Position numbers and translations under genes: made by a program. A DNA stretch of 64,000 nucleotides from the IMG/VR virus record IMGVR_UViG_3300005529_000032, positions 6,594 through 70,593 of that record; one strand, written 5' to 3'. Of this stretch, positions 23,354 to 54,900 are shown piece after piece. A model generated the notes under the pieces. The model was not told the origin of the DNA. It searched no databases and saw nothing but the letters and a program-made list of their open reading frames with translations. Position 1 is the first letter of the stretch, and each line of letters starts with the position of its first letter. Source of the stretch: a virus.

Positions 23354-23935
23354 ATGGGAAGACCCAAAGGTCAATACATCATTAACGAACTCCCGGAAAG
23401 CACTCGATCTAAAGTACTTGATGCACTCCTGGCCGGAGCCTCGCTGCGCGAATGCGCCAAAATCGGAGGCGTCAGCCACGAAGCTGTGAAAACTTACAAA
23501 CAGAATGTTTTCCTGCCAGCAGTTCACAAAGCCCGGCAAATTCAAGCGCTGCAAGGACTTCCTACGTCTGACACCCAAAAAGCCATCGAGCATATTTCCC
23601 TGACGCGCGACGTCATCCAAACGAGTCCACTCCGAGACCGCCTCCAATTCCTTTGGTCTGAGTCCGAGGATGCTGTTAAGCGAGCAAAGAGAGCCGTTCG
23701 CGTGGTCAAAGACCCAGCTTCCGGCGAGCTTGTTCCAGTTGGCCCGGACGTCGCCGCTATCGCGCCCGTCCTCAACCAAGCACACAAGAATTGTGAGTTA
23801 CTTGGGCGGGTAACTGGCGAACTAGAAAGCGCTCCGTCGGCTAACATCGCCGTTCAGATCGTGATGCCAGGTGCGCCACAAAATCCGCCTGCGGCCGAAC
23901 TTCCATATATCGATGTCAGCGTCAAAAAACGCTGA
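23354..23935 (+). CDS. HTH protein, terminase small subunit-like
   Basis: N-terminal HTH 'ALLAGASLRECAKIGGVSHEAV', helical middle, C-terminal 'ELLGRVTGEL...NIAVQIV'; no other TerS candidate found near terL. Confidence 0.55.
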   Translation: MGRPKGQYIINELPESTRSKVLDALLAGASLRECAKIGGVSHEAVKTYKQNVFLPAVHKARQIQALQGLPTSDTQKAIEHISLTRDVIQTSPLRDRLQFLWSESEDAVKRAKRAVRVVKDPASGELVPVGPDVAAIAPVLNQAHKNCELLGRVTGELESAPSANIAVQIVMPGAPQNPPAAELPYIDVSVKKR

Positions 23936-24449: not shown

Positions 24450-24686
24450 TTAGCGGACGAGGCGGGAAGAGGACTCGATTTTATCGAGGCGGTCATCGAT
24501 GCGATTGAAGCGTTGTTCGGTGGAGGATTTGAGGTCGGTGATACGGGCCGAGAGGGAGGCATTGAGGTCGTCGATGCGTTTACTGAGTTCCTCGAGGCGT
24601 TTATTGTTGTTCCAGTGAGCGAGGAGGATAGCGGCGACGACGGGGAGGACGCCGTAGAAGACCTGGAGAGCTTGGGAATTGGGCAT
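24450..24686 (-). CDS. Small TM + coiled-coil protein
   Basis: 'LPVVAAILLAHWNNNKRLEELSKRIDDL...RFNRIDDRLDKIE'. Confidence 0.65.
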   Translation of the reverse strand: MPNSQALQVFYGVLPVVAAILLAHWNNNKRLEELSKRIDDLNASLSARITDLKSSTEQRFNRIDDRLDKIESSSRLVR

Positions 24687-24724
24687 GGGCGGGGCCGTTG
24701 GTAGTCATTATAACTACTTTACGT

Positions 24725-24778
24725 AGTTTAGGGAGTTTAAGAAGTTTAGGGAGTTTAAGAAGTTTAGGGAGTTGACGA
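24725..24778. repeat. 9/18-bp tandem repeat
   Basis: AGTTTAGGG AGTTTAAGA AGTTTAGGG AGTTTAAGA AGTTTAGGG AGTTGACGA. Confidence 0.85.
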
Positions 24779-25006
24779 GGTTTTCTCGGGTGCCTGGGGT
24801 GTGGGGCGGGCGCGGTCGAGTTCAGCTTGGAGTTGGGCGGCGCAGCGGTCGCAGAGGAATTCGGAGTCGGAGCGGGGCTGGAGGTCGCCATCGAGGGTGT
24901 AGGTGTAGGTGGCGCGGTGGGTAGCGGGTTTGGAGCACAACGGAGCTTCGCAGAACATGCGGGCGGAGCGTTCGAGGTCAGGGAGTGGGGTGAGGGAGAT
25001 GGTCAT
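24764..25006 (-). CDS. Small Cys-containing hypothetical protein
   Basis: CxxxxC...CxxC; member of the coupled minus-strand operon. Confidence 0.5.
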   Translation of the reverse strand: MTISLTPLPDLERSARMFCEAPLCSKPATHRATYTYTLDGDLQPRSDSEFLCDRCAAQLQAELDRARPTPQAPEKTSSTP

Positions 25007-25238
25007 AGGGCGTGTTCGCGGGCGCAGAGTTCGCGGGCTTCGGCGGCCCGCACGGGGGCTTCGAAGGCTTTTTTAGAGAGGCGGTTGAACTCGATGGTGA
25101 ATTGGTGGAGTTGGGCGTCTTGTTTATGGATGACGGTTTGGAGGTAGTGGTTAGTGGCGATGAGGGAGAGGACGGCGATGGTCATCAGGACACGGAAGAC
25201 GAGGTCGAAGATATGGGATTTGGACAAGGGGGATTCTT

Positions 25239-25517
25239 TTAGTTTGGGTTTTTGGAGGTGGTTTGGCGGGCGGCGTGGCGGAGGTGGATGGTCCAGGCGA
25301 CGGCGCGTTCGCGGCCGGGGTGTTCGCAGGCTTCTTTCATGGCGGCTACCTGGGCTCCGAGGCGTTTCGATTGGGCGAGGAGGCGGTCGCGTTCGGCTTG
25401 GGACTGGTTGAGTTTCTCGCGGATCTGGCGGTACATGGCGGCGGAGTGGTGATCGACGGCGACGGCGACGGCGCAGACGGCGAGGTTCAGGAAGAGCAGG
25501 GCGAGGCGGAATTTCAT
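25239..25517 (-). CDS. Signal-anchor coiled-coil protein
   Basis: MKFRLALLFLNLAVCAVAVA...; ATGA coupling. Confidence 0.5.
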   Translation of the reverse strand: MKFRLALLFLNLAVCAVAVAVDHHSAAMYRQIREKLNQSQAERDRLLAQSKRLGAQVAAMKEACEHPGRERAVAWTIHLRHAARQTTSKNPN

Positions 25518-25732
25518 AGGGGTTGTGGTCCTTTGGTGGAGTTGTTCCAAGCGATAGCACATTCGGGACAGGGTAGGTATTGGATGGAGTTGGGCAGTTT
25601 CGGGGCGACGAGGACTTGGTGGCCGCAGGCGAGGGTATAGGCTCCGGCGTTGGCGGCGGGGTCGGAGTCGTTGCGTTCTTCGATGAGGCGGAAGAAGCGG
25701 AGTTGGTCGTAGAGGGTAGGGTCAATGAGCAT
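25514..25732 (-). CDS. Small hypothetical protein
   Basis: 'LACGH...CPEC' motif shared with 27973-28383. Confidence 0.5.
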   Translation of the reverse strand: MLIDPTLYDQLRFFRLIEERNDSDPAANAGAYTLACGHQVLVAPKLPNSIQYLPCPECAIAWNNSTKGPQPL

Positions 25733-25744
25733 AGGTTTTGGGTC

Positions 25745-25978
25745 TCAGCTTCGGCGAAGGAGTTTCTGGAGCAGGGTTTGGTTGAAGACGACGGTATCGG
25801 CGCCGTCGGCGAGGAGTTTGCCTTGGTTGAGGAGGCGTTTCGCGGAGATGGGATCGATACCGAGGCGGTTTTGGATGACGCGGAAGAGGAGTTTCATTTG
25901 CTCGGGGTCATCGGAGCGGACGAGGACGTGGGTATCGCGTATGGCGAGGAGGTAGGTTTGGGGCTCGCGGGGGCGCAT
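25745..25978 (-). CDS. Hypothetical protein
   Basis: Coupled ORF in the early operon. Confidence 0.45.
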   Translation of the reverse strand: MRPREPQTYLLAIRDTHVLVRSDDPEQMKLLFRVIQNRLGIDPISAKRLLNQGKLLADGADTVVFNQTLLQKLLRRS

Positions 25979-26452
25979 TTACTTGGGTTCCTCGGTAAAG
26001 GGCCGCTCGCACCAGAGGCAGCGTTTATTGTGGCGGAGGTGCTGCGCATGGAGGGTAGGGCGGCCGGTGGCGGCGTTGTAGCGTTCGGCGAGGAAGTGGT
26101 GGACGAGGCCGCAGTGCGGGCAGGTATAGACGAGCAGTGGGCCGATACCGAGGAGTGCGCGGAGGTCGTCCATGGAAGCTTGCGGGACGCCGTGTTCGCC
26201 GGTGAGCGCGAGGTAGCCGGACGGGGGATGTTGGGGCGGTTCGGCGTCTGCGAGGATCGGGCCGATAGGGCGGAGGGACTCGCTAGGCGGCCATTCGAGG
26301 TCTTCGGGTGAGACGGCTTGGGTATTGCGGCCGAAGGTAACGAAGAGGAAGTTGGGGTTCCAGCTATAGAGGGTGCCGAGATTCGGCTGGCCTCGCGTAT
26401 AGCGGACCCAGCGGCCGGCATCGGCGGGGGAGAGGGTTTTGGGATCGATCAT
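25979..26452 (-). CDS. Hypothetical zinc-finger protein
   Basis: CPHC...CLWC; N-terminal SH3-like segment 'GRWVRY...LFVTF'. Confidence 0.55.
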   Translation of the reverse strand: MIDPKTLSPADAGRWVRYTRGQPNLGTLYSWNPNFLFVTFGRNTQAVSPEDLEWPPSESLRPIGPILADAEPPQHPPSGYLALTGEHGVPQASMDDLRALLGIGPLLVYTCPHCGLVHHFLAERYNAATGRPTLHAQHLRHNKRCLWCERPFTEEPK

Positions 26453-36771: not shown

Positions 36772-37252
36772 CTTCGTAGTCCGAGAAGAACGAACGCTGC
36801 CGTTCGGTGTCTGTCATCGGCATGGTCTTGACGACCTCGAGCGTCTTTTGAGAGATGAGGCTTTTCATGCCAGGTGTGGGCCGGTTCAGCACGACATCAC
36901 ACGGCGTCGGCACAAGCTCATACCCTTCGCGGATGTTCTTGCAGAGCAGGTCAATATCGGCTTCTCTTTTCTCGATCTGGGCCTTAAAGGAGTCGGAAGC
37001 CTGCTTCTTCTCCTCCTCAAGGCGCTCCACGTCCGCGCGAACGCGGGCGATGGATTTGGCTTTCTCGAGCAGTTCCTCGTCGGTGAACTGCCGTTTGACT
37101 TCTTCGATGTGGGTAATCTGCCGAGGTTCGTTCATGATGCTCCTTTCAATGTCCGGTTGGTTCGTGGCTGCAAACCGTTCCCATTCGATTGCAGCGTCGA
37201 GGAAGCGGTCAACGCCGCCCGCTCTCGTCACGATCTGTTTCACGCTTTCCAC
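36746..37252 (-). CDS. Conserved phage coiled-coil protein
   Basis: 'FTDEELLEKA...IREGYE...MTDTERQ'; alternative start MNEPRQ. Confidence 0.6.
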   Translation of the reverse strand: MESVKQIVTRAGGVDRFLDAAIEWERFAATNQPDIERSIMNEPRQITHIEEVKRQFTDEELLEKAKSIARVRADVERLEEEKKQASDSFKAQIEKREADIDLLCKNIREGYELVPTPCDVVLNRPTPGMKSLISQKTLEVVKTMPMTDTERQRSFFSDYEGGSDASAS

Positions 37253-37264
37253 TGCTTCGGTCTT

Positions 37265-37759
37265 TCAATCCCTAAACGCTTCAAGAGTCTTCGCAAGAGG
37301 CAAAGCTCCAGATTCGCCTTTAACCCTATCCTCGAGTTTTCGGACGCGGCGCGGGTCCAAAACTGTCGTAATCATCCCCAGAATCGAAGCGGTCGCGTTG
37401 AACCTCATCTTTTCTTGGGCATTAAGCCCGACGTAGTCGTGGACCCCCTGGGACACCCGGTTAAAGCTCCGTCGCGCCTTCCGCCGGATTGAGCACACAT
37501 CTGCCTCGGCATTGCGAATCACCCCGATATCGTCTAGCCGCATCATTCCGACGTTTTTTACAGCGGCGAAGACTAATCCCTCCTTTTCGAGCATCTTGCG
37601 TGCGCTTTGCAGGGACCCGCGCGCCTGCTTCTGAGGATCGCGGCCGATCCGGGTCTGCATCTCGACATAAGTAACAATGCCTCGAATCTCGGTACTTCTC
37701 AGTAACTCGGCCAGCATCTTCGTGTCGATACTTGCTGTGAACGTCGGAGTGGTGATCAT
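37265..37759 (-). CDS. Hypothetical 164-aa basic helical protein immediately downstream of the pentamer arrays
   Basis: ATG 37759; its RBS (AAGGA) is the last unit of tract C. Confidence 0.7.
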   Translation of the reverse strand: MITTPTFTASIDTKMLAELLRSTEIRGIVTYVEMQTRIGRDPQKQARGSLQSARKMLEKEGLVFAAVKNVGMMRLDDIGVIRNAEADVCSIRRKARRSFNRVSQGVHDYVGLNAQEKMRFNATASILGMITTVLDPRRVRKLEDRVKGESGALPLAKTLEAFRD

Positions 37760-37764
37760 AAGAA

Positions 37765-37884
37765 TCCTTGCCTTGCTTCGTCTGGCCGCGTGATGCCACG
37801 CCAAGCGGCGCACTGCGCTGCGGAGCCGGACGATGAGTCGCGGTGTCCGGTCGAGCGGTGTCGCGAGGCGAGTGGTCACGCCGG
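37765..37884 (-). ncRNA. Pentamer-periodic tract C (putative guide RNA, 23-24 units)
   Basis: Top-strand purine every 5 nt from 37770 to 37880 (22 G + 1 A); minus-strand units NN+VDC. Confidence 0.8.
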
Positions 37885-37914
37885 AAAAAAACGGAAGATT
37901 GCATGTATGAATGA

Positions 37915-38004
37915 ACCTTGTGCTGCGTTGCCGGGTGTTGCGAAGCGCTGCGCTGCCGGATCGCGTCATGCCACGCCGGGTGGAGTGCTGCGCCGAGATG
38001 GTTA
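37915..38004 (-). ncRNA. Pentamer-periodic tract B (putative guide RNA, 17-18 units)
   Basis: Top-strand purine every 5 nt from 37915 to 38000 (16 G + 2 A). Confidence 0.8.
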
Positions 38005-38025
38005 AAGAAGTAGTGCATATAAAGT

Positions 38026-38125
38026 CCCTCGTGATGCCTTGTCTCGCTGGGACCCGTCGAGCTCGGCCAAGCCGTGCCGCGCGAAGACCAGAGAAGTCCG
38101 GCGCAGCCGTGCTGTGACATGCAGA
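38026..38125 (-). ncRNA. Pentamer-periodic tract A (putative guide RNA, 19-20 units)
   Basis: Top-strand G at every fifth base from 38031 to 38121 (19/19); begins 3 nt after the RAMP-like stop codon. Confidence 0.85.
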
Positions 38126-38128
38126 AGG

Positions 38129-38710
38129 TTAAGCGGCTGCATCGAGAGCGACGTCGAGCCACTCGATCCGATCAACCTTGAAACGACCGTAGAAACCATT
38201 CTTGGCGGGACGAAAGCGTCCGATGCCGATCACGCGACCGGCCCACGTAATGTGTTCAGTGAAAATCTCCTGGTTGATGATTTCGTCGAGGACGTAAACG
38301 AGCAGGACGCCACTCCAAGATGGGATAATGGGAAAGTTTCTCCAGACCCGAGTGCTACCGCCTCGCCTCCCATCTGCTGGAACGAATAGTCGCTCTTTCG
38401 CCACGTCCATAGCTTTAATCGGAAGCACGAGGGGATCAGCAATTAAGATCCCGGATTCAAATTTTGCTTTGAATGTAGCGCCTCTCTTGCCGGGAATTTT
38501 GATTTGCAGATACTGTGCCGATTCAGAGAGGCAGTTCTTAAAAGCCATTGGCGGGATGTAGACATACCCCTCTTCGTTCACGTGCATGCGATGCCGCCAT
38601 GTGCGGAGGTCATAATCTTCGTGCGTTTCGCTACGTTCCTTGTCCACCTCGTAATGCCTTGATTGGCTGTAGACGGACGTTGATGTGAGATGTACTTTTG
38701 CGAGTTTCAT
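38129..38710 (-). CDS. Solo RAMP/Cas7-like RNA-binding protein (Vipr-like), 193 aa
   Basis: N-terminal strand 'KVHLTSTS', 'VYIPPMAFKNCL' (RAMP IP-x-S/A-x-K motif), C-terminal Gly-rich loop 'GRVIGIGRFRPAKNGFYGRFKV'; AAGGGAG RBS; no other cas genes present. Confidence 0.75.
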   Translation of the reverse strand: MKLAKVHLTSTSVYSQSRHYEVDKERSETHEDYDLRTWRHRMHVNEEGYVYIPPMAFKNCLSESAQYLQIKIPGKRGATFKAKFESGILIADPLVLPIKAMDVAKERLFVPADGRRGGSTRVWRNFPIIPSWSGVLLVYVLDEIINQEIFTEHITWAGRVIGIGRFRPAKNGFYGRFKVDRIEWLDVALDAAA

Positions 38711-38738
38711 GCTTACTCCCTTACAAGCTGAATCGTGG

Positions 38739-39110
38739 TTACTTACCAAAACCTCTCAGGCCCTCTCCAGGCTGTAGACACTCGGCGAGTTGCCGCAAGC
38801 CGCTTTCTGCCGTGCGAGCCACCACGTACACGCCGCCGAGCTCGCGAATCATGGCGCAAAAATTCTTCTGGGCTTCATTGAGCCGGTCTTTCCCGGCCTT
38901 AGTCTCGATCTCGAGGCGGCGCCCACTCGGGCCGATGATGCCGGAGAGATCTCCCTGCCCATTCACGCCGGCATTGAGAAACCGCTCCCGTCCTCCGGTG
39001 CCGAGGACTTTTGCCTTGACCCTGTTATTCCGCCAGAGCCGGATTGCAGGAAACCGCTCCGGGACCCGGATGAGTAACTCGGCGTTGAGTAAGCTCCCTG
39101 GGGTGCTCAT
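38739..39110 (-). CDS. VRR-NUC-like nuclease
   Basis: 'LWRNN...GQGDLSG...LEIETKAGKDRLNEAQKNF...GGVYVVAR'. Confidence 0.85.
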   Translation of the reverse strand: MSTPGSLLNAELLIRVPERFPAIRLWRNNRVKAKVLGTGGRERFLNAGVNGQGDLSGIIGPSGRRLEIETKAGKDRLNEAQKNFCAMIRELGGVYVVARTAESGLRQLAECLQPGEGLRGFGK

Positions 39111-40534
39111 GCGGACCTCATCCATTCCTTCGGCGGCCAGTGACCGAACACGATCTTGAAGCGGACCATCGGCCAGTTCGGCTTGTAGCCGCGCATCCGC
39201 GCAATCTGCCGGTACTCTTCGAACTTGGCCCGGCGCGTGTCCTCTCGCTGTTCTTGCTGCCACTGCTCGATAGCAGCTTGTTTCTGTTCTTCGCGGTACT
39301 CCTCGAGTTCGCCGCGCGCGGTGTCGATCCGGCGTTCAAACTTCGGAATCGGCGCGAGGCAGTAAGGACAGGCCGTGACTCCGGTTCTGAACGTCGCGAA
39401 ACAACGTCTACAGGTCGTGATGCTGAGAACCGATTCGTTGCCGCTGTGCTGGATGGCTTTCCCTTCCAGCGACCACTGAATGTCGTCCTCAAAGAACGCG
39501 TTCAGGCGTCCGGTGTTATCAAAATGGTCCAGAACGTAAAAGTTGGTTTTTCTGCGGTGCGGACGGCTCGCGCGGCCGAGCATTTGGCGCCAGAGACCTT
39601 CGCTCGCTGTGGCGCGGGCTCCGATGATACAGGAACAACAAGGATGATCCCACCCATAGGCCACCAAACCAACATTCGCGACGATCGGAAGGGACCCATG
39701 GTCAAACTCACGCCACACGCGTTCCCGTTCCGCATCAGGGGTGTCAGCATCGACATAAGCACATGGAACTCCTGCACAACGAAATTTCTCGGCAATCTCG
39801 CTCGCATGATGCTGCGAGACGCCAAACGCAACCGTCTTGCGGTCCGACGCAAGCCGCTTCCATTGCTCCACAACATCGCCGACTAACTTCGGCTTGTCGC
39901 ACACCTCCGCGAGTTGCTTCTTATTGAACTCGCCGGCTGTCTTGGCAACGCCGCTCAGATCCGGTGCGCCTTTCGGACGAAACACCACACTGGGAACGAG
40001 ATAGCCGAGCGCAATGAGCTCCCGGACCGAGGAACCCTGCACCATGTAGTCGGCTATCTCCCCCAGACCGCGCCCGTCGAGGCGCACGGGCGTTGCGGTT
40101 CCGAGTAGCAGCTTTGCGTTGGGGTAGCGGTCAATGACCTTCTTCCAGGTATCCGAGACGGCAAAGTGCGCCTCATCGAGAATGAGCAAGTCCGCCGGCG
40201 GAGTATCTTCGCGCCGGTGAATCGTGTCAATACTTGCGACATGCACCGATAAGTGCGGCTTGCGGCGCGGGTCGTCAGACATGATGACGCCGTGCTCGAT
40301 GCCGAGACGGTCCAAGCGCTGACTCATGTCATGCACGAGGTTGCGACGGTTCACCAGGAACACCACGCGTTTGCCGCGGCTCGTGACACCGTGAACTATA
40401 AAGGTGTATAACGTGCCCTTCCCGCTCCCGGTGGGCGACACCAGGAGTACGCTGCGATACTGCCGCATCGCTTCGCGCACGGCCGCCAGGTCGCGTTGCT
40501 GGTAAGGCCGCAAGGTCGGGCACGCCATCATCAC
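39107..40534 (-). CDS. SF2 DEAD/ResIII-like helicase with C-terminal zinc finger
   Basis: 'LRPYQ', 'SPTGSGKG', 'LDEAH', 'TATPVRLDG', 'QMLGRASR', 'CRRC...CPYC'. Confidence 0.92.
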   Translation of the reverse strand: MMMACPTLRPYQQRDLAAVREAMRQYRSVLLVSPTGSGKGTLYTFIVHGVTSRGKRVVFLVNRRNLVHDMSQRLDRLGIEHGVIMSDDPRRKPHLSVHVASIDTIHRREDTPPADLLILDEAHFAVSDTWKKVIDRYPNAKLLLGTATPVRLDGRGLGEIADYMVQGSSVRELIALGYLVPSVVFRPKGAPDLSGVAKTAGEFNKKQLAEVCDKPKLVGDVVEQWKRLASDRKTVAFGVSQHHASEIAEKFRCAGVPCAYVDADTPDAERERVWREFDHGSLPIVANVGLVAYGWDHPCCSCIIGARATASEGLWRQMLGRASRPHRRKTNFYVLDHFDNTGRLNAFFEDDIQWSLEGKAIQHSGNESVLSITTCRRCFATFRTGVTACPYCLAPIPKFERRIDTARGELEEYREEQKQAAIEQWQQEQREDTRRAKFEEYRQIARMRGYKPNWPMVRFKIVFGHWPPKEWMRSA

Positions 40535-45676: not shown

Positions 45677-45988
45677 ATGGGACGTAAACACGCCACCAAG
45701 TCGGCCAAGTCGACCAAGGCCATTAACGAAGCATTCGGAAAGGCTCTCCGAATGCTTCGCGAATCAAAGCAGTGGTCGCAGGAGGAATTTGCCCGGCAAT
45801 GCGAGCTCGACCGCACTTACATTTCCCTCATTGAGCGGGGGAAGCAAAGCCCCACACTAAGAAATGTTCAAATATTTTGCCGTGGATTGGATATCTCGCT
45901 GGTCGAGCTATTCGCGCTGGTTGAAAAGAACCTGCCGCACGACAAATATCACTGCACTTCCGCCGGCACTGCGAAGTCGGGCCGATGA
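45677..45988 (+). CDS. XRE-family HTH regulator
   Basis: 'FGKALRMLRESKQWSQEEFARQCELDRTYISLIERGKQSPTL'. Confidence 0.9.
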   Translation: MGRKHATKSAKSTKAINEAFGKALRMLRESKQWSQEEFARQCELDRTYISLIERGKQSPTLRNVQIFCRGLDISLVELFALVEKNLPHDKYHCTSAGTAKSGR

Positions 45989-48900
45989 ACCAGAGGCGGA
46001 GTTCGGAAGTGGAGTTTGTTGGCTAAGTCACGCGTATCAGCATCCCAGAGAAAGGGCTTGCGCCAAGCCTTAGAGAGCTTCTCCCGCATGATGCCCTCCA
46101 CGTGTTTCCGTTCTTCCGGACTTGCGGCATCGTACGCCTTGAGCGCGGTGTAAAGGCCATCGCCCGAGACGGGCAGGCTCTTGAACGCGGCAGCCAGTGT
46201 GTTCTGGTGCGCACGGGAGACGATGCTCTTCACGTCCGCAGAAGTCAGCGTTCCGTCCCGGATCGCGCTCTGTGCGATCTGCCGAACTTTATTCATGTCG
46301 CCGGACTTCGTCGCAAGGAACAGTTGCGCCCTCGCGCGAGAGTGTTCCGTCGGTGCCGGGGTGACTTGTGCCCGCTGTTCCTGCTGGAACTGCGCGATGA
46401 TCTTTTCGGCTTTGCTCATCCCAACGTCGCGCCCGGCCGGCATGATGCCGACGAGCGGCAACGCGGTTTTCGCAAGGGACTGTCCTCGCTCGAGGTTCTT
46501 TTTGACACCTTGCACAGAATAGGGCGTTACGAAGCTGCCCAGATAATTGCCGAGTCCGACGCCGCCGTGGCCGATAATCTTTTCATTGCGATAGGTCCGG
46601 TTGCGCGCCAAGCCGCCCACAATACTGAGCAGTGGAGCGGACTTCGCAACCAGTGTCGCGGTCGGCTTGGTGAGGTAAGAGTAAACGTCCTTTGCCAAGT
46701 AGGTCGGCAAAACGATGCGGCTGGGCTGGCCGTCCTCGGTGATTCCGCCGTCCCGCGGCATGACGTAATCCATGAGCTCATCCGGACGTTGGCCGCTCAA
46801 GAGCCAACTGACGACGGCATTGATGACTGCGCCGCCAAGCAGCAGAGCGATGAGAAACGCCGTCCGGTCCGTGAACTCGACCGGTTTGCCGCGTGCCCCG
46901 TCGCCAATCATCTTCAGAGCATCGTAGACGCCGCCGCCAAGCTCGCGAACGCTTCCAATATTCCATCCAGGCCGCCCGACTCCGGCATTCATCAGGTTCC
47001 GGACAATGCCGTTCATGAACAGGTTCTTCTGCGAGAGTTGACCAAACCGGTTATCGATGGAGTCCCAGATTTTGCCGAACCGTTCGCGTGCTTCGTCCAG
47101 GGTCATGTCCGGACGTTGTTCGAGCTCAAGTTGCGCCCGTCGTGCGAACGCGCCGAGTTTCACGCGTGGAACCAAGTACTCCATAATCGGCTTCATGATC
47201 TGTTCCATGGCCGCAAAGGGTGCCCGGATACTCGTGCCGAAGATGCGCCGGAGGAAATTGCCCTGCCGGTTCCAAGCGTTCTTCATCCCTTGCGTCCAGT
47301 TCGTCGCGTAATAGAGATCCTGCCGGGCACGGCCGCCGCCCTTCTTGAGCGCGTCGACAATGGCGTAGGTCATCGGGTCCGGAGCCTGCTCCGTGCCATC
47401 CCAGACCTTCTGCAGTTTCGTCCCACTCAAAAAATCACTTGTCACGGAAGCGAAGGGCGTAAAGCCGCGGACTATCGCCTTTCCGGCCTCGATGGGCTTG
47501 GCGGCTGCGAGTTGCTTTAAGCCGAGCGCTATATCAGAGAACGAGGAATTGAGCGCCGTTGTCAGACCGTGATACCAACTTGCGCTCAGTTCGATCATGT
47601 TGAGCGTGTTGTTCGCATCGCGCCACAGCTTGAAGGCGTCGAGTTGGATACCGGGCGAGAGGTGATTATTGATGACCCGCGCCAGTGGTTCGGCGGCCCA
47701 GTAGCGCCCCATCTCGCGCCGGCCGAACACGCGAACATAACTCGGCGAGACGACGTCGTTGATGTGTTTGCTGGTGTGCTCCCAGTCGGCTTGCGCGATC
47801 TCGAAGTCTTCCGGGTCCTCGTAATCTTGTGGCCTCGGAGCCGGGATATCGATCTTCACTGCGCCACGTTTCGGACCGAAAACAGTAAAGATTCGGTCGT
47901 CGATGGGCGCTAATCCCTGAGCCCGCGCCTGCCGTTCGCCGCCCGCGCGGACATAGGCAATGCGTCCCTCGCTCTGGAGTTCGTCAAAGACCAAGTGCGC
48001 CGTGATGGATTTATCCATTTGCGCGAGCTTCGACAAAATGAAGTCGACCGGATTGTCGAACTTCGCCTCGAGCGTAAAGTCCGGATCTTCGAGAGCTTCC
48101 TTGAGCGTCGGGTATTTGCGCTGCTTCTTGAACGCCTCCGACCCGGCTATGGGACGTTTTTGCAGCCATCCCTGAACCCAGTCCGCCGCCTGGTCCGGCT
48201 TCTTGTACTCGTGCGGCAGGTAATTCTCGATGTACGCGCGGAGAATGCCGAGATCCTGGAGTTCCTGATACCGGCCATCGAACATCTTGCGAGCCACGTC
48301 CGCGAAAGCTCTCTCGATGGGCGATAACTTGGCTGTCTGGCCCGTCTCGATCGCGTCGTAAACGTCGAGACCATAGACGCCGTGCTTCTTTACACCGCTC
48401 TTATAGAAGTAGTCCTTGAAAGTCTTGAGCGCATTGTAGGCACGGTCCCGCCGCTGGTCCTGCTCGGACATCATCTCGCGCAACATTCCGGTGCCCTTGC
48501 GTGCCGGTTCGCCGCGGGTTTGCGGCGCGGTGAGGCTCTGGATGTCATCGAGAGACTTGGCCAAGCGCTGTGCCGCGGATTTAAATACAGGCGCGATGTC
48601 CTCGGAGAACAGTTCATGCAGGTCGCCGGCGAACTTCTGCAGCTTTGCCAGATCCTGCGGCGCCAGGATGATCGACCCGCGCTCTCCTTCGCTCCGGCGA
48701 ACCAGCAAGGGACCTTTGCCGTGCTCGAGCGAGACTTCCCCCTCGCCACGCTCGACGTACCACTCATCCGGGTCCGCGTTGAGCCGCTCTTTCGACTGCT
48801 CGGGCGTCTCCGCCGGCGGAGTCCACTTATTGTTGAAGTCCCTCGCCTTGTCCTGAAACCCCGCAGGCATCTTCGTCCAGTTCCAGTCGAGTGATGCAGC

Positions 48901-51900
48901 CGCCTTCCGGGCGTAATCGACGGCATGCCAATCGGTCCGCAAGCCGCCGCGAATCAGTAATCCGCTCGGGATGTGCTGCACGTTCCATGTGGGTCCGGCG
49001 CCGCGGTAAGCCGGTTTCTCTTCCGAAACGCCAAGTTCCGGAGTGACTATGTTTCCTTTGACGGTGAAGCGCGAGCCGTTGGATGATGAACCCTGCCACT
49101 TGCGCTGCGGAAGCCACTTCGCATGTATGGACGCGTTCGGGTCCTGCAGGAACTTATAGAGCGGGTTAGAGGGGTTTGTCTGCGCCTCTTCGGCGGCCCG
49201 CAATGCTGCTTTGTCATCGCCGGTTTCGCCGAGCTTCATTGCGAGCTCCGCCTGCCGGCGCTTCATTTGGGCGAGCTTTTCTTCCTGTGGAAATGCGTCT
49301 CCGTACTTACTTTCTAGCTCCGTCTGCTTTTTCGTGAACCGGCGCAGTTCGTCCCGCTGATGCTTCAGCAGGTCATTGAACTCGACCTGCCGCTTCATCG
49401 TGTCCATGATGGCTTCGGAGGTTTCCTTCGAACCATAGGGGGACGAAATGGCATAAGTGCCGGACGACGCTTTGAGACGCGCACCCGGCGTGGTGTAGAT
49501 CGCAATGTGGTTCGTAGCGCTGCGCCAAGGTATCTCGGACGCCTCGCCTTTGGTCTTCTCCCAGTCCGCGTGCACCTTCTCGGCGTCTTCCCGGCTGAGT
49601 TCCTTAGTCTTGATCTCCTCCGGCATATAGCGGTTGTTCCGCATGTCGGCGACATCGTTATAACCTTGGAGCTCGTAGTACATCACCTTCTTGTCAGGAA
49701 GCTGCACGCGCACGAAGCTGCGCGCCTTGCGGCCTTTCTCGGTGCGTCCTTCAATGCTGTTCGTGCGTGCGATGGTCTGGAGCTCAAAGCCGCGGTACGT
49801 GGCGTCGATGGTTCTGCCGTCCTGGGCGACCGGGCCCATGGAGTCGAGCAGTTGGAAGAGTGCCTCGCCGCCCTTGCTGCGCATCTCATTGCCCGAAAAC
49901 CGCTGTCCGGCGACAATCATGTCCGGATTTGCGTCGCGTGTGGCGATGTCCTCTTCGTACTCCTGAATGCGCTCTTTCGTGGCCCGAATGGTCGCGGGAA
50001 GCGTGGCCATTTGCTGCGCGATAGCGCTCTGTTCACTGAGAAATGCGCCGCGCATGACGTCGAGCTTGTGGATGTCCTGGTCGAGGATGATCTTTTCCCG
50101 GATCTCCGGGTTGCCGGACGAGATCGCTTTCGCCTGCTCATAACTGAGCACCAGGGGCGAGAGCTCGTCGACGTCATCCATGTTCGGGTCGCCTTCCATT
50201 AACTGCTCGATCGGCGCCGCTTTGCTCGAGAGCGTTTCCCACATGAACGCGTCGAAACTGCCCTCGGTCATGTAGCGATACAAGCGAACCGATTTGATGT
50301 GGCCGTTATCGTAGAGCCAGTTTCCCTGCCGCACAATGCGACCGTCGCGTTGCTGCATGTCGCGAGGCCGCCAGGGAGCGTCAAGGTGATGCAAGGCAAC
50401 CAGTAGCCGCTGGACGTTCGTCCCGGCACCCATCTTCTCCGTACTACCCAATAAGACCCGGAGCTTGCCGGAGTTCATCCGGTCGAACATATCCTGCTTC
50501 TGCGCGTCCGTTTTGGCGTCCTGCGCAAAGGCAATTTCGTCTGCTGGGATACCGCTCTTCACGAGCTTCTTTTTGATGTCCTCGTACACCGAGGCGCGTT
50601 CGCGCGACTCCTCGGCCGTTTCGGCTTCTTCTTCCTCCTCTTCTTCTTTGCCGCCGAACGGGTCCTCTTCGTCCGCTTCGGCTGCGGGTTTGTTTGCGAT
50701 CTCGAGCGCGGGCTTGGCTTTTACCTTCTCGCTCTTCGGCGTCCCGAGGTCGAGAAATACAAGCTGCGTTCCCTTGAGGTCTTTGAACTCGTTGTAGACG
50801 TCGAGAATCTGCTTAACTGCCAAGTTCGGCTTGCTCTTCGGGTCATCGGGCAGGCTGGGCCGGACTAACCGCATGTCGAGCGAGGCTTTGCGACCGTCGC
50901 TCGAGATTTTGAGCATGTTGTCCTGCTCGGGTTCCACCTCGCCCGCGCGGACCGCGTCCGCACGCTCGCCGATGTGCAGAACGTATTCCTTCAGCGCGTC
51001 CGATGCCGGCGCAACAATGTCGACGTAGCCGCCCTTGTAAACGGCAGGCGTCGGTAGATTCAATTGCTTCGCGGTTCGGATGTCCGCCACAAGGCGGAAC
51101 ATGGCCATCATCTGTGCCGCGTTCTTGAACTTACTGAAGCGGGTGCGCTGGATGAAGCGGCCGCCCTCGGGTGCGACCTCCATCTGGGTGCGCGTTTCGC
51201 CGAATGTTTTGGCCCATGCGTCGAACTGGTCGAACCCTTCGCGCTCGAGGTAGTTCGGCATCAGATACCGCATCATCGTCCAGATCTCGGCGATGGAGTT
51301 ACTCACTGGCGTTCCGGTCGCAAACACAACACCTTTGTCGCCGCCGTGCAAGCCGGACACGAAGCGGGTCTTGAGCAACATATCCGTCGCGCGGTCGCTA
51401 TCGGTGTTCGGCAAACCAGCGATACGGTCCATTTGTGTCATGTAGCCGAGGTTCTTGAACAGGTCCGCCTCGTCCACAAAAATCTGATCGACGCCGAGTT
51501 CTTCAAACGTGAGCCCGGTGTCCTTGGACTCTTTCTTTAGCCGCTTCTCGAGCTTCGCCTCGAGCGAGGCTTTACGGCGATACAGTTGCTTGATGGTCGG
51601 GTTCTGCCGCGCGTCCTTGTCGGACATGCCCGCGCGTGCGGCGTCGATCGCCTCTTCGATCTCACTGAGTTGCTCTTCAACGAAGTTCTTGTACGTCTCC
51701 GGCTTGACGCCGAGTTTCTCAAAGCTCTTATGCCCGACGATAACCGCGTCATAGTTGCCGGACGCGATACGCGCCATGAGCCGCTGGCGGTTCTGCTTCT
51801 CGAAGTCCTTCTTTGTGGGCACCAGGATTTGCGCACCTGGATAAGCGCGCATCCAATCGTCGGCCCACTGCTGTACGAGATGGTTCGGGACGGCTACCAA

Positions 51901-54900
51901 TGGCTTCTTACGCATGCCGAGACGGCGCAACTCCATCGCCGCCATAATCATCTCGAGCGTCTTCCCGGCTCCGACGACGTGGGCATAGAGCGTGTTCCCT
52001 GATTGGATGGTGCGCCAGACGGCATTCTGCTGATGCGGCTCCGGCTTCCCAGACCGTAGCCACGAGGTATTGAGACCGGGGAACGTGAGGTGCGAGCCGT
52101 CATACTCGCGCAACCGCAGATTATTCACCTCAATGTTGAACTTCTGCTCGAGCCGCTGTGACCGCTCCGGATCGCGCCACAACCAGTTCGTAAACGCATC
52201 CTTGAGTTTCTGCTGCTTCTCGACAGCTTTGATGGTCTCGTCGGGATTCTTGACGGTACGCTCGTTGCCGTCCATGTCCGTATAAGTGTCACGCGCAACC
52301 GGACTCTGGCCGTTCAATGCTTTCTCGAACAAGTCGATGCCGTCGAAGTAAGCCGTTCCGAACTCGGTTGTATTCGCTACGCCGTGGTCGCTGAAATGCG
52401 GACTGGTATTAACGCCAAAAGTACCCGTCTGCACGATGTAGTTCACAGCCTGACTGGCGGGTCGTTCCGGGGAGCCCATCGCGCCCTCGACGCGCAGAAC
52501 CTCGTGCGCGAACCGTGAATAGTCGGTGTCCGGTATCCACGTAGCGCCGAGCGAAGCTTTAATCTTGCCGGCTGGTTTCCAGGCAGGCTGAACCTTCTCG
52601 AGCGCTTCGACGTTCGCCTGAAACTCGGGATGCTCTTCTGCGATGAACTTCGCATCCGCTAGTTTCTGCCGGACATTGCCCGAAAGATACTCGTCCTGAG
52701 TCTCCCATTTATTGCTCGTGGGGTTGCGGAAGATCTTGCCCGTGAGCTCCTTCTGCAGCGTTGCCGGGTCGCGTCCGGTCAACTCCTGCATCCGGTCCCA
52801 GTCCATGCGCCCGAGCTCATTCAGGCTGACGGCGAGCGCTTCGGCCGCAGTGTCAACACGCTCGATACGCTGGGGCTTCTGAATGGTGCGGCCATGGAAG
52901 ATCGGTCGCGTCTTCGCGATGACATAGCGGTCCTTGCCGTGAGTAAGAACAACTTGTTTGCCGTCCTTCGAGACGCTCCACTTCCCCTTGTCCTTCGCCG
53001 CCTTGGGGGCGTCCCGATAGGCATCTTTGTTGAAATCTTCGAGTAGTCCGGAAACGACTGGCCAATCCGGATCTTGCGCAAACACTAAAGCATTGCCGAG
53101 CAGACCGACGGGCCCATACTCGGCGACAAAGCCCGCGTATTCCTTATTCAGGTCCGCGCGGGCCTTTGTGACCTCTTCCTCCGGCATGTCGAGCCGCTGA
53201 GTGCGAATGACCTCGCGAGCCATCCCCCGGAGTTCGATCAGGCCGCGCATACGGTCGAGTTTCTTCCCCTTGAAGGTGACCGGCTTAAACACTCCGCCTT
53301 GACGCTGAACGACTGCACCGTTGACGATGCCGAACTGATGATCTTTGATATGACTCGCGTCCGGATAGTTCTCGACTAACTCGTCGTTCGCTCCGGTGTG
53401 TCCTGCGGTCCAGTCCGGCATGACGTTAGCCGGGAGCCGATTAAACAGGTCCTTCAGCTTGTCCATGCTGAACTCGCCGAAGAGTTCTGGATAGCCGCGA
53501 GCGTACTGCGTTCCCGGCCTCATCTCGCCCATCATCATTTCCGGATGAGCGTGGAAATACTCATTGACGTTGACCAACTCTCCGCCCGGCATGGTGAGCT
53601 TTGGAGATTCGAGCCACTTGTTATCGGTCAGCGGAACTTCGCCGGGCATCCGCTTGCGGAGTGCGATGATGTCGACCGTGACGCTGGTGCCGGCATTCTC
53701 TTGAAACGTGTCGCGCGGTAAGCGAATGGCGCCGAGTAATTCGGCCCGTTCATTCATCCACTTCCGGAACCCTTGGTTCTGACCGTCCATGGTGTACCGC
53801 GACGTGATGGCGAACATAATGCCGCCCGGCCGCAGTTTGTCCATGGTCTTCGCGAAGAAGTAGTTATGAACGTTCTTTGTGAGGAAAGGTTGCCGTTTGT
53901 AAGCCGGGTCCACGACCGGATGATTTGCGAACGGGACATTGCCGATCGCCGCATCGAAGTAGTTGTCCGGCAGATTCGTTTCCTGGTAACCCTTCACAAG
54001 GACGTTGCTGCCTGGGAACAGAGCGCGGGACATAGCGCCGGTCATAACGTCGAGCTCTACACCCGTGCGCGAGGTGCCCGGCATCAGGTCCTCGGGCATC
54101 ATCATGAAGAAGTTGCCGATACCCATGCCGGGTTCGATGACGCTCTGGCCGGCGTGGAAGCCCATGCGTTTCAGCGCATCCCACATAGCCGCTGCGATAT
54201 CGCGCCGGGTATAGTGCGCGTTCTGAGTGGAAGCCTCAGCCGCCCGCAGTTCTTCGCGGCTTAGTAACCCGTGCAGGTCTTCGCGCAGTCCGGCCCACTC
54301 GCGCTTATAGCCGGTGAAGATGCCTTGTGCGATCTCGGACATGCCCCACCCGACGAACTTTGCAATCTTCTGCTGTTCCTCGAGCGTAGCCGCGCGGTTG
54401 CCCTCGGCAATGATCTGTTTGATGGTACGGATGGCCTCGAGGTTCGCTCGAGCGCGGGTCTTTGCGCCGCTGTTTTCGATTGCGGCTGCTTCTTCGACGG
54501 TTAGCCGGAAGTCTCCGGAGAGGTTATTGGTTGGAGTTGGCTCGGCCTGAACGTCAGAGGCGCGGGTTCCTCCGGCAGGAGATACCACTCCCGGTACGCG
54601 ATCTCCTGCGCCCGGTCGTACGGCATGTTGTTCGGGCTCGACGTGAGTGTCTGCATGAGGTCCAGCGTGTTCACCGCCGCCGCCCAGACCGCCTGGTAGA
54701 GTTTCCCCTCCTTCTCCAGGTCCGCGCACATCTTGGGCCGGAATTCCTTCCAGTGCTCGAGGACCTTCTCCGCGAACGGGCTCTCTTCCACCTCGTTCCG
54801 TGCCTGCTGTTCCGGCGTCACTGGGTTCCTCCGCTTCTATTTTCTCAGGGGCTTCAATATCCCGTGGTCTGGCGAGGTCTACGGCGGGTTCAGGCGCGGG

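What the first reader, a model, noticed from the sequence alone, without database searches (positions are those of the whole stretch)
37765..37884. Tract C decodes (antisense) to the HTH of a homologue of the TerS-like gene 23354-23935
Seen: the reverse-complemented NN string (..gc at ac aa gc ct ct ga gg at tc gt cg ga gt gc gc tg ac gg) reads A-[I/M]-T-[K/N]-A-L-L-[D/E]-G-[I/M]-S-V-R-[E/D]-V-A-A-[W/C]-T-G. The self gene at 23423-23470 encodes A-L-L-A-G-A-S-L-R-E-C-A-K-I-G-G (gca ctc ctg gcc gga gcc tcg ctg cgc gaa tgc gcc aaa atc gga ggc). Nine of 16 dinucleotides are identical, again in wobble-skipping phase and at the conserved HTH positions. Inference: the target is a more diverged competitor's copy of this gene. 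The orientation relative to the coding strand is opposite to tract A, which favours dsDNA targeting.
Basis: partly seen in the sequence, partly recalled or inferred. Interest (0 to 1): 0.8.

Follow-up and report, generated by a model that had tools for sequence, protein, structure and literature searches.

The report
VIPR guide RNA tract in phage
The tract is one of three guide RNAs of a phage-borne VIPR system, a CRISPR-like silencing device first described in 2026, and its variable bases spell a DNA-binding (helix-turn-helix) motif that probably belongs to a gene of a rival phage.

Summary
It lies on the + strand at 37788-37884 with a period of five bases (40 of 40 letters).

The 370-bp gap between two minus-strand genes holds three tracts of 19, 16 and 23 five-base units. 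On the minus strand each unit reads [G/C][G/A/T][C/T]-NN, and 58 of 58 units carry a pyrimidine at position 3.

The upstream gene (38129-38710) folds as a Cas7/Csm3-like RAMP. The downstream gene (37265-37759) is a winged-helix protein. Of 80 related viral loci, 76 carry such tracts.

This matches VIPR systems: Vipr + Vap + GGY/NN vrRNAs with a one-base-skip code (bioRxiv 10.64898/2026.04.26.720920). The kind is therefore already known, and this locus is a new member.

- The 9-of-16 match to the phage's own gene is at chance level in this contig.
- The decoded peptide fits that gene family's helix-turn-helix profile like a typical member (31.8 bits; 0 of 100,000 shuffles reach it).
- No real target reaching 80% NN match was found.

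The parts
38129..38710 (-). vipr: 193-aa RAMP (Cas7/Csm3-like) protein with a glycine-rich loop near its C-terminus
   Evidence: AF2 model has pLDDT 90.3. Foldseek against PDB gives 105 hits at E<=1e-3; the best are type VII Cas7 (8z4l_F, E 1.3e-7) and type III Csm3. The protein matches phrog_4652 at E 1.2e-14. The family profile matches the Felixounavirus (Mijalis/SUSP2-type) protein with hhalign probability 96.6%, E 5.4e-10.
38029..38122 (-). vrRNA tract A: 19 five-base units
   Evidence: G at period 5 in 19 of 19 units. Unit list.
37998..38028 (-). A+T-rich spacer or tail after tract A
   Evidence: Read directly. No consensus promoter or terminator was found.
37918..37997 (-). vrRNA tract B: 16 units, one with T instead of C at the pyrimidine position
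37883..37917 (-). A+T-rich spacer or tail after tract B, ending in a run of seven T on the minus strand
   Evidence: Read directly.
37788..37882 (-). vrRNA tract C, variable (guide) part: 19 units.
37768..37787 (-). 3' end of tract C: four A-rich units (...CGAAG CAAGG CAAGG). This ending recurs at tract ends in relatives and here also supplies the ribosome-binding site of vap.
37265..37759 (-). vap: 164-aa accessory protein, an N-terminal winged helix followed by a helical domain
   Evidence: AF2 model has pLDDT 86.8. Only weak Foldseek matches to MarR/PadR/GntR-type regulators (best E 0.043). A homologue is present in 72 of 80 loci chosen by the RAMP gene. No BLASTP similarity to the Mijalis neighbour gene.
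23411..23470 (+). Helix-turn-helix segment of the phage's own gene 23354-23935. It resembles the decode of tract C but is not itself a target.
   Evidence: 22 of 40 and 20 of 32 letters match, below the 80% rule. Family profile test.

Best explanation
Tract C is the guide part of one of three VIPR RNAs (vrRNAs). They are encoded on the minus strand between vipr (38129-38710) and vap (37265-37759) of a temperate soil phage.

By analogy with the published systems, copies of the RAMP protein Vipr line up along the RNA, one per five-base unit. Each copy holds the constant triplet, here [G/C][G/A/T][C/T], and presents the two variable bases. Those bases pair with one strand of double-stranded DNA, skipping every third base, and the bound complex silences transcription.

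The guide of tract C is antisense to a reading frame that spells a helix-turn-helix. The target is therefore most likely the helix-turn-helix coding segment of a rival phage's gene. I put about 0.45 on it being a homologue of the phage's own gene 23354-23935. The own copy differs at 18 of 40 guide letters and so escapes.

What is shown here: the periodic tracts, their conservation next to these two genes, the RAMP fold, and the fit of the decode to the family profile. What is inferred from the papers: transcription, filament assembly, DNA binding and silencing.

The confidence given is for the VIPR identity, not for the named target.
For: - 58 of 58 units have a pyrimidine at position 3 and none has C at position 2, while positions 4 and 5 use all four bases.
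- Period-5 tracts lie next to the homologous genes in 7 of 7 viral loci and in all 17 metagenome loci.
- They also occur in 76 of 80 loci chosen by the RAMP gene, and 72 of those 80 carry the winged-helix gene.
- The NN pairs differ between loci while the frame is kept.
- The RAMP fold is well supported, with homology to the Felixounavirus protein. That protein's locus shows GGT-NN tracts, one upstream and three downstream, as the paper describes for SUSP1.
- The paper defines VIPR by these parts and by the one-base-skip rule with the wobble position skipped. Structural abstract: 10.64898/2026.04.26.720927.
- No self site reaches 80% NN match; the best is 25 of 40. This agrees with the paper's finding of no self-targeting.
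- Target class: profile test, conditional test and L105.
- Parallel case: tract A decodes to the zinc-ribbon motif of the phage's own helicase at 39365-39421 (score 65, against a maximum of 55 in 100 shuffles).
Against: - No RNA data exist for this phage; the only sequencing run listed is DNA.
- The constant triplet is looser than GGY. GGC makes up only 15 of 58 units, and CGC, GAC, CAC and CTC are common.
- Tract C has 23 units, whereas the paper reports 9-16 for its two studied clades.
- No conserved structured 3' tail was identified, and Rfam finds nothing.
- No natural target was found in the own contig or in 104 fetched loci totalling 663 kb (best 25 of 42).
- IMG/VR searched with three exact 9-unit windows gave 0, 0 and 1 hit. 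The single hit extends to no more than 21 of 44 letters.
- GTDB genomes searched with an exact 10-unit window gave 7 hits. All extend to only 25-29 of 44 letters, 20 of them by construction, and four are one Treponema gene that is not a helix-turn-helix.
- The match to the own gene is at chance level.
Confidence: 0.9

Rival explanations
1. Tract C is a VIPR guide, but its target is a helix-turn-helix of another family, such as a lysis-lysogeny regulator, a transposase or a terminase small subunit with an HTH_23/HTH_28-type motif. It is not a homologue of gene 23354-23935.
For: - The core L-L-x-G-x-S-x-R-x-[IV]-A-x-x-x-G is generic to this helix-turn-helix class (my own knowledge).
- One homologue of the own gene carries PF13384/PF13518, and another is named 'transposase' by its source.
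- The paper reports prophage lysis-lysogeny regulators as frequent targets.
- No family member carries the decoded peptide.
Against: - The decode also fits family-specific columns: I/V at column 1, W at column 17 and V at column 14.
- It beats chance at the columns where it differs from the own gene.
- I had no other helix-turn-helix families in hand to compare, so specificity is untested.
Confidence: 0.3
2. The helix-turn-helix reading is a coincidence. The guide aims at something else, at a decoy, or at nothing.
For: - The self-match is at chance level.
- The full 19-unit string matches L105 at only 22 of 38 letters, and 16% of shuffles do as well.
- The other orientation of the guide is also free of forced stop codons.
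- No target was found in any collection.
Against: - 0 of 100,000 shuffles reach the profile score, and the decode scores like a median family member.
- Control guides (C reversed, A and B in both orientations) score 3.7 bits or less at their best offsets, against 31.8.
- Tract A shows the same kind of resemblance to another own gene.
Confidence: 0.2
3. The tracts are not guides. They are protein-binding leaders, with triplets spaced by two bases as in the TRAP-binding sites of Bacillus trp leaders. These would let the RAMP or winged-helix protein control translation of vap and its neighbours.
For: - Tract C runs into the ribosome-binding site, with the ATG at 37759.
- In relatives many tracts end ...CAAGG a few bases before a start codon.
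- This role could coexist with a guide role.
Against: - Tandem arrays of up to 8 tracts occur with no gene behind them (L057, L072).
- One tract is followed by a terminator-like hairpin (L002).
- The published experiments show that guide function depends on the NN pairs.
Confidence: 0.07
4. The tracts act as double-stranded DNA: iterons of a replication origin or a partition site bound by the winged-helix protein.
For: - The locus sits in the replication module, next to a helicase and a VRR-NUC nuclease.
- A winged-helix protein is always nearby.
- A+T-rich spacers separate the tracts.
Against: - A 5-bp repeat with only about three constrained positions is a poor site for a winged-helix dimer (inference).
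- The orientation always follows the direction of the genes.
- The RAMP fold of the neighbour and the published RNA data account for all the features.
Confidence: 0.02

Closest known systems
VIPR systems (Viral Interference Programmable Repeat): Vipr + Vap + vrRNA. Sources: bioRxiv 10.64898/2026.04.26.720920 (Results and four Methods sections read), 10.64898/2026.04.26.720927 and 10.64898/2026.10.15.759431 (abstracts and outlines only).
   Same: - The system is phage-borne.
- It is a minimal two-gene locus with a RAMP protein and a DNA-binding accessory protein.
- Roughly 100-base tracts of five-base units have a constant triplet and two hypervariable bases.
- Several tracts stand in a row.
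- Read with one base skipped, the guide gives an open frame with the skip at the wobble position.
- No self site reaches 80% NN match.
   Different: - The triplet here is [G/C][G/A/T][C/T] rather than GGY.
- The tracts have 16-23 units, against the 9-16 reported for the SUSP1 and P. fulva clades.
- All three tracts lie between vipr and vap, not one upstream and three downstream.
- The accessory protein has no detectable sequence similarity to the Felixounavirus one.
- The tail is short and T-rich, with no recognised structure.
- I could not assign one of the seven types, because the type tables and figures are in supplements or images that I could not see.
Class 1 CRISPR-Cas backbone proteins (Cas7 of type VII, Csm3 of type III-A)
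   Same: The fold of the 193-aa protein matches (Foldseek probability 1.0, E down to 1.3e-7). The idea is also shared: a protein filament on a guide RNA that breaks base pairing at regular intervals.
   Different: No CRISPR repeat-spacer array and no other cas genes lie nearby. The period is 5 with only 2 pairing bases, not 6 with 5. The guide is written in the genome rather than acquired.
TRAP-binding sites in Bacillus trp leaders: (G/U)AG triplets with 2-3-base spacers (recalled, not looked up)
   Same: Triplets recur every five bases on an RNA that reaches a ribosome-binding site.
   Different: No TRAP-like protein is present. The neighbouring protein is a RAMP, and the variable bases, not the triplets, carry the information.

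Membership tests
VIPR | Vipr protein: a RAMP fold (RRM core) with a glycine-rich loop, homologous to known Vipr proteins | tested here: met
   AF2 pLDDT 90.3. Foldseek finds Cas7/Csm3 with 105 hits at E<=1e-3. The motif G-I-G-R-F-R-P...G-R-F is conserved in 37 homologues. hhalign gives 96.6% probability to the Mijalis protein, which is 99% identical to that of phage SUSP2. SUSP1 itself was not among the rows shown.
VIPR | Thumb domain of the RAMP protein | not tested
   I did not inspect the model for a thumb.
VIPR | vrRNA: at least four tandem five-base units of the YNNGG / GGY-NN type, or a related consensus | tested here: met
   Tracts of 19, 16 and 23 units. Y is present at 58 of 58 units, position 2 is G, A or T, and position 1 is G or C in 52 of 58. 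This is a looser consensus than GGY, and the paper allows NNNGG, YNNNG and NNNNG variants.
VIPR | NN pairs hypervariable while the repeat frame is conserved among relatives | tested here: met
   Positions 4 and 5 use all four bases. Tracts are present in 76 of 80 related loci with different NN content. No formal per-site entropy was computed.
VIPR | Minimal locus with an accessory vap gene that interacts with DNA | tested here: met
   The 164-aa winged-helix protein lies directly downstream. A homologue occurs in 72 of 80 loci. The paper lists winged-helix-like Vap proteins.
VIPR | Encoded by a virus or provirus, outside a CRISPR locus | tested here: met
   The 70.6-kb contig carries an integrase, a primase-helicase, a tail spike, a helicase and a VRR-NUC nuclease. 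No CRISPR-like repeats lie in 37600-38300.
VIPR | Roughly 100-nt transcripts that co-purify with Vipr | not testable with these tools
   No RNA run was listed for this sequence.
VIPR | Conserved 3' tail after the repeat tract | tested here: inconclusive
   Tracts end in A-rich units (...CAAGG) followed by T-rich sequence, both here and in relatives. No structure was tested, and there is no Rfam hit.
VIPR | A natural target with >=80% NN match under the one-base-skip rule | tested here: inconclusive
   None was found.
VIPR | No self-targeting at >=80% NN match | tested here: met
   Best self scores are 25 of 40 (C), 20 of 32 (B) and 23 of 38 (A).
CRISPR-Cas (type III / VII) | A repeat-spacer array and further cas genes (Cas5, Cas10 or Cas14, Cas6, Cas1/2) | tested here: not met
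   Direct repeats in the region are only the period-5 tracts. The neighbours are a winged-helix protein, a VRR-NUC nuclease and a helicase.
   No Pfam or PHROG hit. One homologue has HTH_23/HTH_28. No ORF of 250 aa or more lies between 20629 and 28751, and the nearest large ORF is a primase-helicase on the other strand.

The most novel reading that the evidence does not exclude
The guides of this phage are aimed at the most conserved motifs of a rival's counterparts of its own genes. Tract C spells the helix-turn-helix of the 23354 family, and tract A spells the zinc ribbon of the helicase. On this reading VIPR serves here as a kin-exclusion weapon among related temperate soil phages. The phage's own copies would be kept safe by divergence at about 40% of the guide letters, partly through synonymous codon families (AGA in the own gene against CGN in the guide for arginine in tract A).
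Probability: 0.4. Interest if true: 0.45.

Novelty: new member of a known kind. Interest (0 to 1): 0.33.

Why it matters
- The scan recovered, from raw sequence alone, a system class that was published only in 2026.
- It adds an uncultivated temperate soil phage with a looser repeat consensus, longer guides and a different accessory protein.
- The related family is large. More than 1,100 proteins match the RAMP gene, and 76 of 80 sampled viral loci carry tracts. Such tracts are therefore a cheap marker for annotating VIPR loci and for predicting phage-phage conflicts.
- The target prediction gives a concrete, testable case of one phage silencing a relative's regulator-like gene.
- It does not reveal a new kind of mechanism.

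Tried and rejected
- Rfam found nothing in the whole window at gathering thresholds, in 37600-38300 at E<=1, or in L072 and L057 when I looked for hammerhead ribozymes between tracts.
- No tRNA genes were found.
- The consensus promoter and terminator scan of 37100-38900 found 0 and 0 sites.
- Before finding the papers I considered a TRAP-like RNA leader, replication iterons or a centromere, R-loop origins, primase sites and restriction-site chains. I dropped them once the RAMP fold and the VIPR preprint explained all the features.
- A literature search on periodicity terms gave nothing relevant.
- blastn and tblastn against INPHARED phages at default thresholds gave no match. At E<=10, 133 weak matches appeared.
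- Single-protein scans of viral contigs found no relatives.
- A genome-contig scan for the winged-helix family found none, so no host could be named.
- Sequencing runs: no RNA holder was listed; the only run is a soil-metagenome DNA run that may be the source.
- Target searches that found nothing are listed in the Against line.
- One search used a column offset that was wrong by one, so its first two score lines are void. One search is the corrected run.

Full report
**The observation.**
Sampling the + strand every five bases from 37788 gives 40 of 40 letters. The next best placement at any period from 2 to 8 anywhere in the window gives 26 of 40.

The string is the variable part of a strict five-base periodicity. 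G stands at every fifth + strand base in 18 of 19, 16 of 17 and 19 of 19 units of three tracts. The longest such run in the 70.6-kb contig is 19, against a mean of 10.0 and a maximum of 15 in 100 block shuffles. No other part of the contig has long tracts of this kind.

The three tracts fill the 370-bp gap between two minus-strand genes, with A+T-rich spacers between them. Read on the minus strand, the 58 units are [G/C][G/A/T][C/T]-NN:
- position 3 is C in 56 units and T in 2;
- position 2 is never C;
- positions 4 and 5 use all four bases.

**The neighbours.**
The upstream gene (38129-38710, 193 aa) has no Pfam hit and matches only phrog_4652, of unknown function. Its AlphaFold model (pLDDT 90.3) matches the Cas7 backbone protein of type VII CRISPR complexes (E 1.3e-7) and Csm3 of type III-A complexes. 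In all there are 105 PDB hits at E<=1e-3.

The downstream gene (37265-37759, 164 aa) folds as a winged helix plus a helical domain (pLDDT 86.8). Its matches to MarR/PadR/GntR-type regulators are weak (best E 0.043).

The wider context is a temperate phage: a helicase, a VRR-NUC nuclease, an integrase, a primase-helicase, a methyltransferase and a tail spike.

**Conservation.**
- The winged-helix family is small, with 7 proteins. The RAMP family is large, with 1,174 proteins at E<=0.001 among 1,200 candidates.
- All 7 viral loci found with the winged-helix alignment carry period-5 tracts beside the gene. So do the 17 metagenome loci, under a looser detector that also gives about 14 minimal false tracts per shuffled 70 kb.
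- Of 80 viral loci chosen by the RAMP gene, 76 have tracts (at least 11 of 12 successive units), 72 have the winged-helix gene and 69 have both.
- The constant triplet varies by clade: strict GGC in L005 and L012, GAC/GAT in the A+T-richer L007. The NN pairs differ everywhere.
- Tracts end in A-rich units (...CAAGG) followed by T-rich sequence.
- Some loci hold arrays of 7-8 tracts with no gene behind them (L057, L072).

**What it is.**
A full-text search led to bioRxiv 10.64898/2026.04.26.720920. I read its Results and four Methods sections. The paper describes VIPR systems:
- a phage-encoded RAMP protein (Vipr);
- an accessory DNA-interacting protein (Vap, some of them winged-helix-like);
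- roughly 100-nt vrRNAs made of YNNGG (GGY/NN) units plus a 3' tail.

In those systems the NN pairs bind double-stranded DNA with one base skipped per unit. The skipped base usually falls on the codon wobble position, and targets occur on either strand. Natural targets are rival phages, satellites and prophage regulators. A target is called at >=80% NN match, and no self site passes that threshold.

A companion abstract reports Vipr filaments that sequester each GGY and present the NN pairs, forming an R-loop triplex. A third abstract reports guides aimed at relatives' genes.

A direct link to those systems exists. The RAMP family profile matches the Citrobacter phage Mijalis protein (hhalign 96.6%, E 5.4e-10), which is 99% identical to that of Escherichia phage SUSP2. 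The Mijalis locus shows GGT-NN tracts, one upstream and three downstream. This is the layout the paper gives for SUSP1.

The window therefore holds a VIPR locus, and tract C is its third vrRNA.

The decode is correct and is antisense to the guide. The link to the own gene does not stand on its own:
- The own site matches 20 of 32 letters, as do three other sites in the contig.
- 91% of 300 shuffled strings reach 20 or more somewhere in the contig.
- At the amino-acid level the site ties for first, and 14% of 200 shuffles do as well.

Independent family data help the claim. A profile search found 380 relatives of the 23354 protein.
- Against a position matrix from the 118 members with an ungapped helix-turn-helix segment, the decode scores 31.8 bits when the best allowed residue is taken (44th percentile of members). 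It scores 20.8 bits when the allowed residues are averaged (7th percentile). None of 100,000 order shuffles reaches either value.
- At the 10 columns where the guide differs from the own gene, it still fits the family. 2,414 of 100,000 permutations and 268 of 100,000 random draws do as well; with averaged residues the figures are 5,653 and 2,075.
- In the one viral homologue with DNA in hand (L105), the helix-turn-helix site matches 23 of 32 letters, reached by 2 of 2,000 shuffles. The full 19 units match only 22 of 38, and 16% of shuffles reach that.

Against the claim:
- No family member carries the peptide. The best are 11 of 19 and 11 of 16 positions among 159 proteins, although that still exceeds all 200 shuffles.
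- The motif core is generic to this helix-turn-helix class.
- I had no other helix-turn-helix families to compare, so specificity to this family is untested.

**Search for a real target.** None was found.
- Own contig: maximum 25 of 40 letters.
- 104 fetched loci (663 kb): maximum 25 of 42.
- IMG/VR with three exact 9-unit windows: 0, 0 and 1 hit, the last a chance hit.
- GTDB genomes with one exact 10-unit window: 7 hits. All extend at background level (25-29 of 44, 20 by construction), and four are the same Treponema gene, which is not a helix-turn-helix.

Absence here is therefore weak evidence.

**A parallel case.**
Tract A, read in the sense of the guide, decodes to I/M-T-T-C/W-R-F/L-C/W-F/L-A-T-F/L-R-S-G-P. 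Its best match in the contig is the zinc-ribbon segment of the phage's own helicase (39365-39421). The score is 65, against a maximum of 55 in 100 shuffles. At the letter level the match is only 23 of 38, which is chance level.

Two of the three guides thus resemble conserved motifs of the phage's own genes, on opposite coding strands.

**Verdict.**
The kind is already known, from preprints of 2026, and this locus is a new member. It differs by a looser triplet, longer guides, all guides placed between vipr and vap, and an accessory protein unrelated in sequence to the Felixounavirus one.

The 'TerS-like' label for gene 23354-23935 is not supported.

I could not see the paper's supplements, so I cannot say which of the seven types this is, or whether this clade is in their list.

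Noticed in passing
window 38029-38122 (tract A) and 39365-39421 (-): The guide-sense decode of tract A matches the zinc-ribbon motif ITTCRRCFATFRTG of the phage's own DEAD-type helicase. The BLOSUM score is 65, against a maximum of 55 in 100 shuffles. At the letter level only 23 of 38 match, with arginine codons from the other codon family.
   Followed up: partly
window 37918-37997 (tract B) and about 23786 (+): In the + orientation, tract B's best amino-acid match in the contig falls on the most conserved motif (ELLGRVTGEL) of the same gene, 23354-23935. The score is 33, and 37% of shuffles do as well, so it is not significant.
   Followed up: partly
L072 3131-3873: Seven period-5 tracts are separated by a conserved spacer of about 55 nt that carries a hairpin, giving a CRISPR-array-like layout. 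No Rfam family, hammerhead included, matched at gathering score. The paper mentions ribozyme-interspersed arrays.
   Followed up: partly
L057 5075-6050: Eight tandem tracts of about 100 nt each end in the same short ...ACAAGG + T-rich motif, with no gene behind them.
   Followed up: no
window 24600-26200: Strong period-3, period-6 and period-9 G runs suggest a collagen-like or other glycine-repeat coding region. No ORF of 250 aa or more lies between 20629 and 28751.
   Followed up: no
window 45949-58707 (-): A single ORF of 4,252 aa. I did not examine it.
   Followed up: no
L106 (Citrobacter phage Mijalis) 2100-2300 and 3490-3870: GGT-NN tracts are annotated as intergenic or overlap a small 'hypothetical protein' CDS (locus 2244-2378). 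That small CDS is probably a mis-call over a vrRNA.
   Followed up: no
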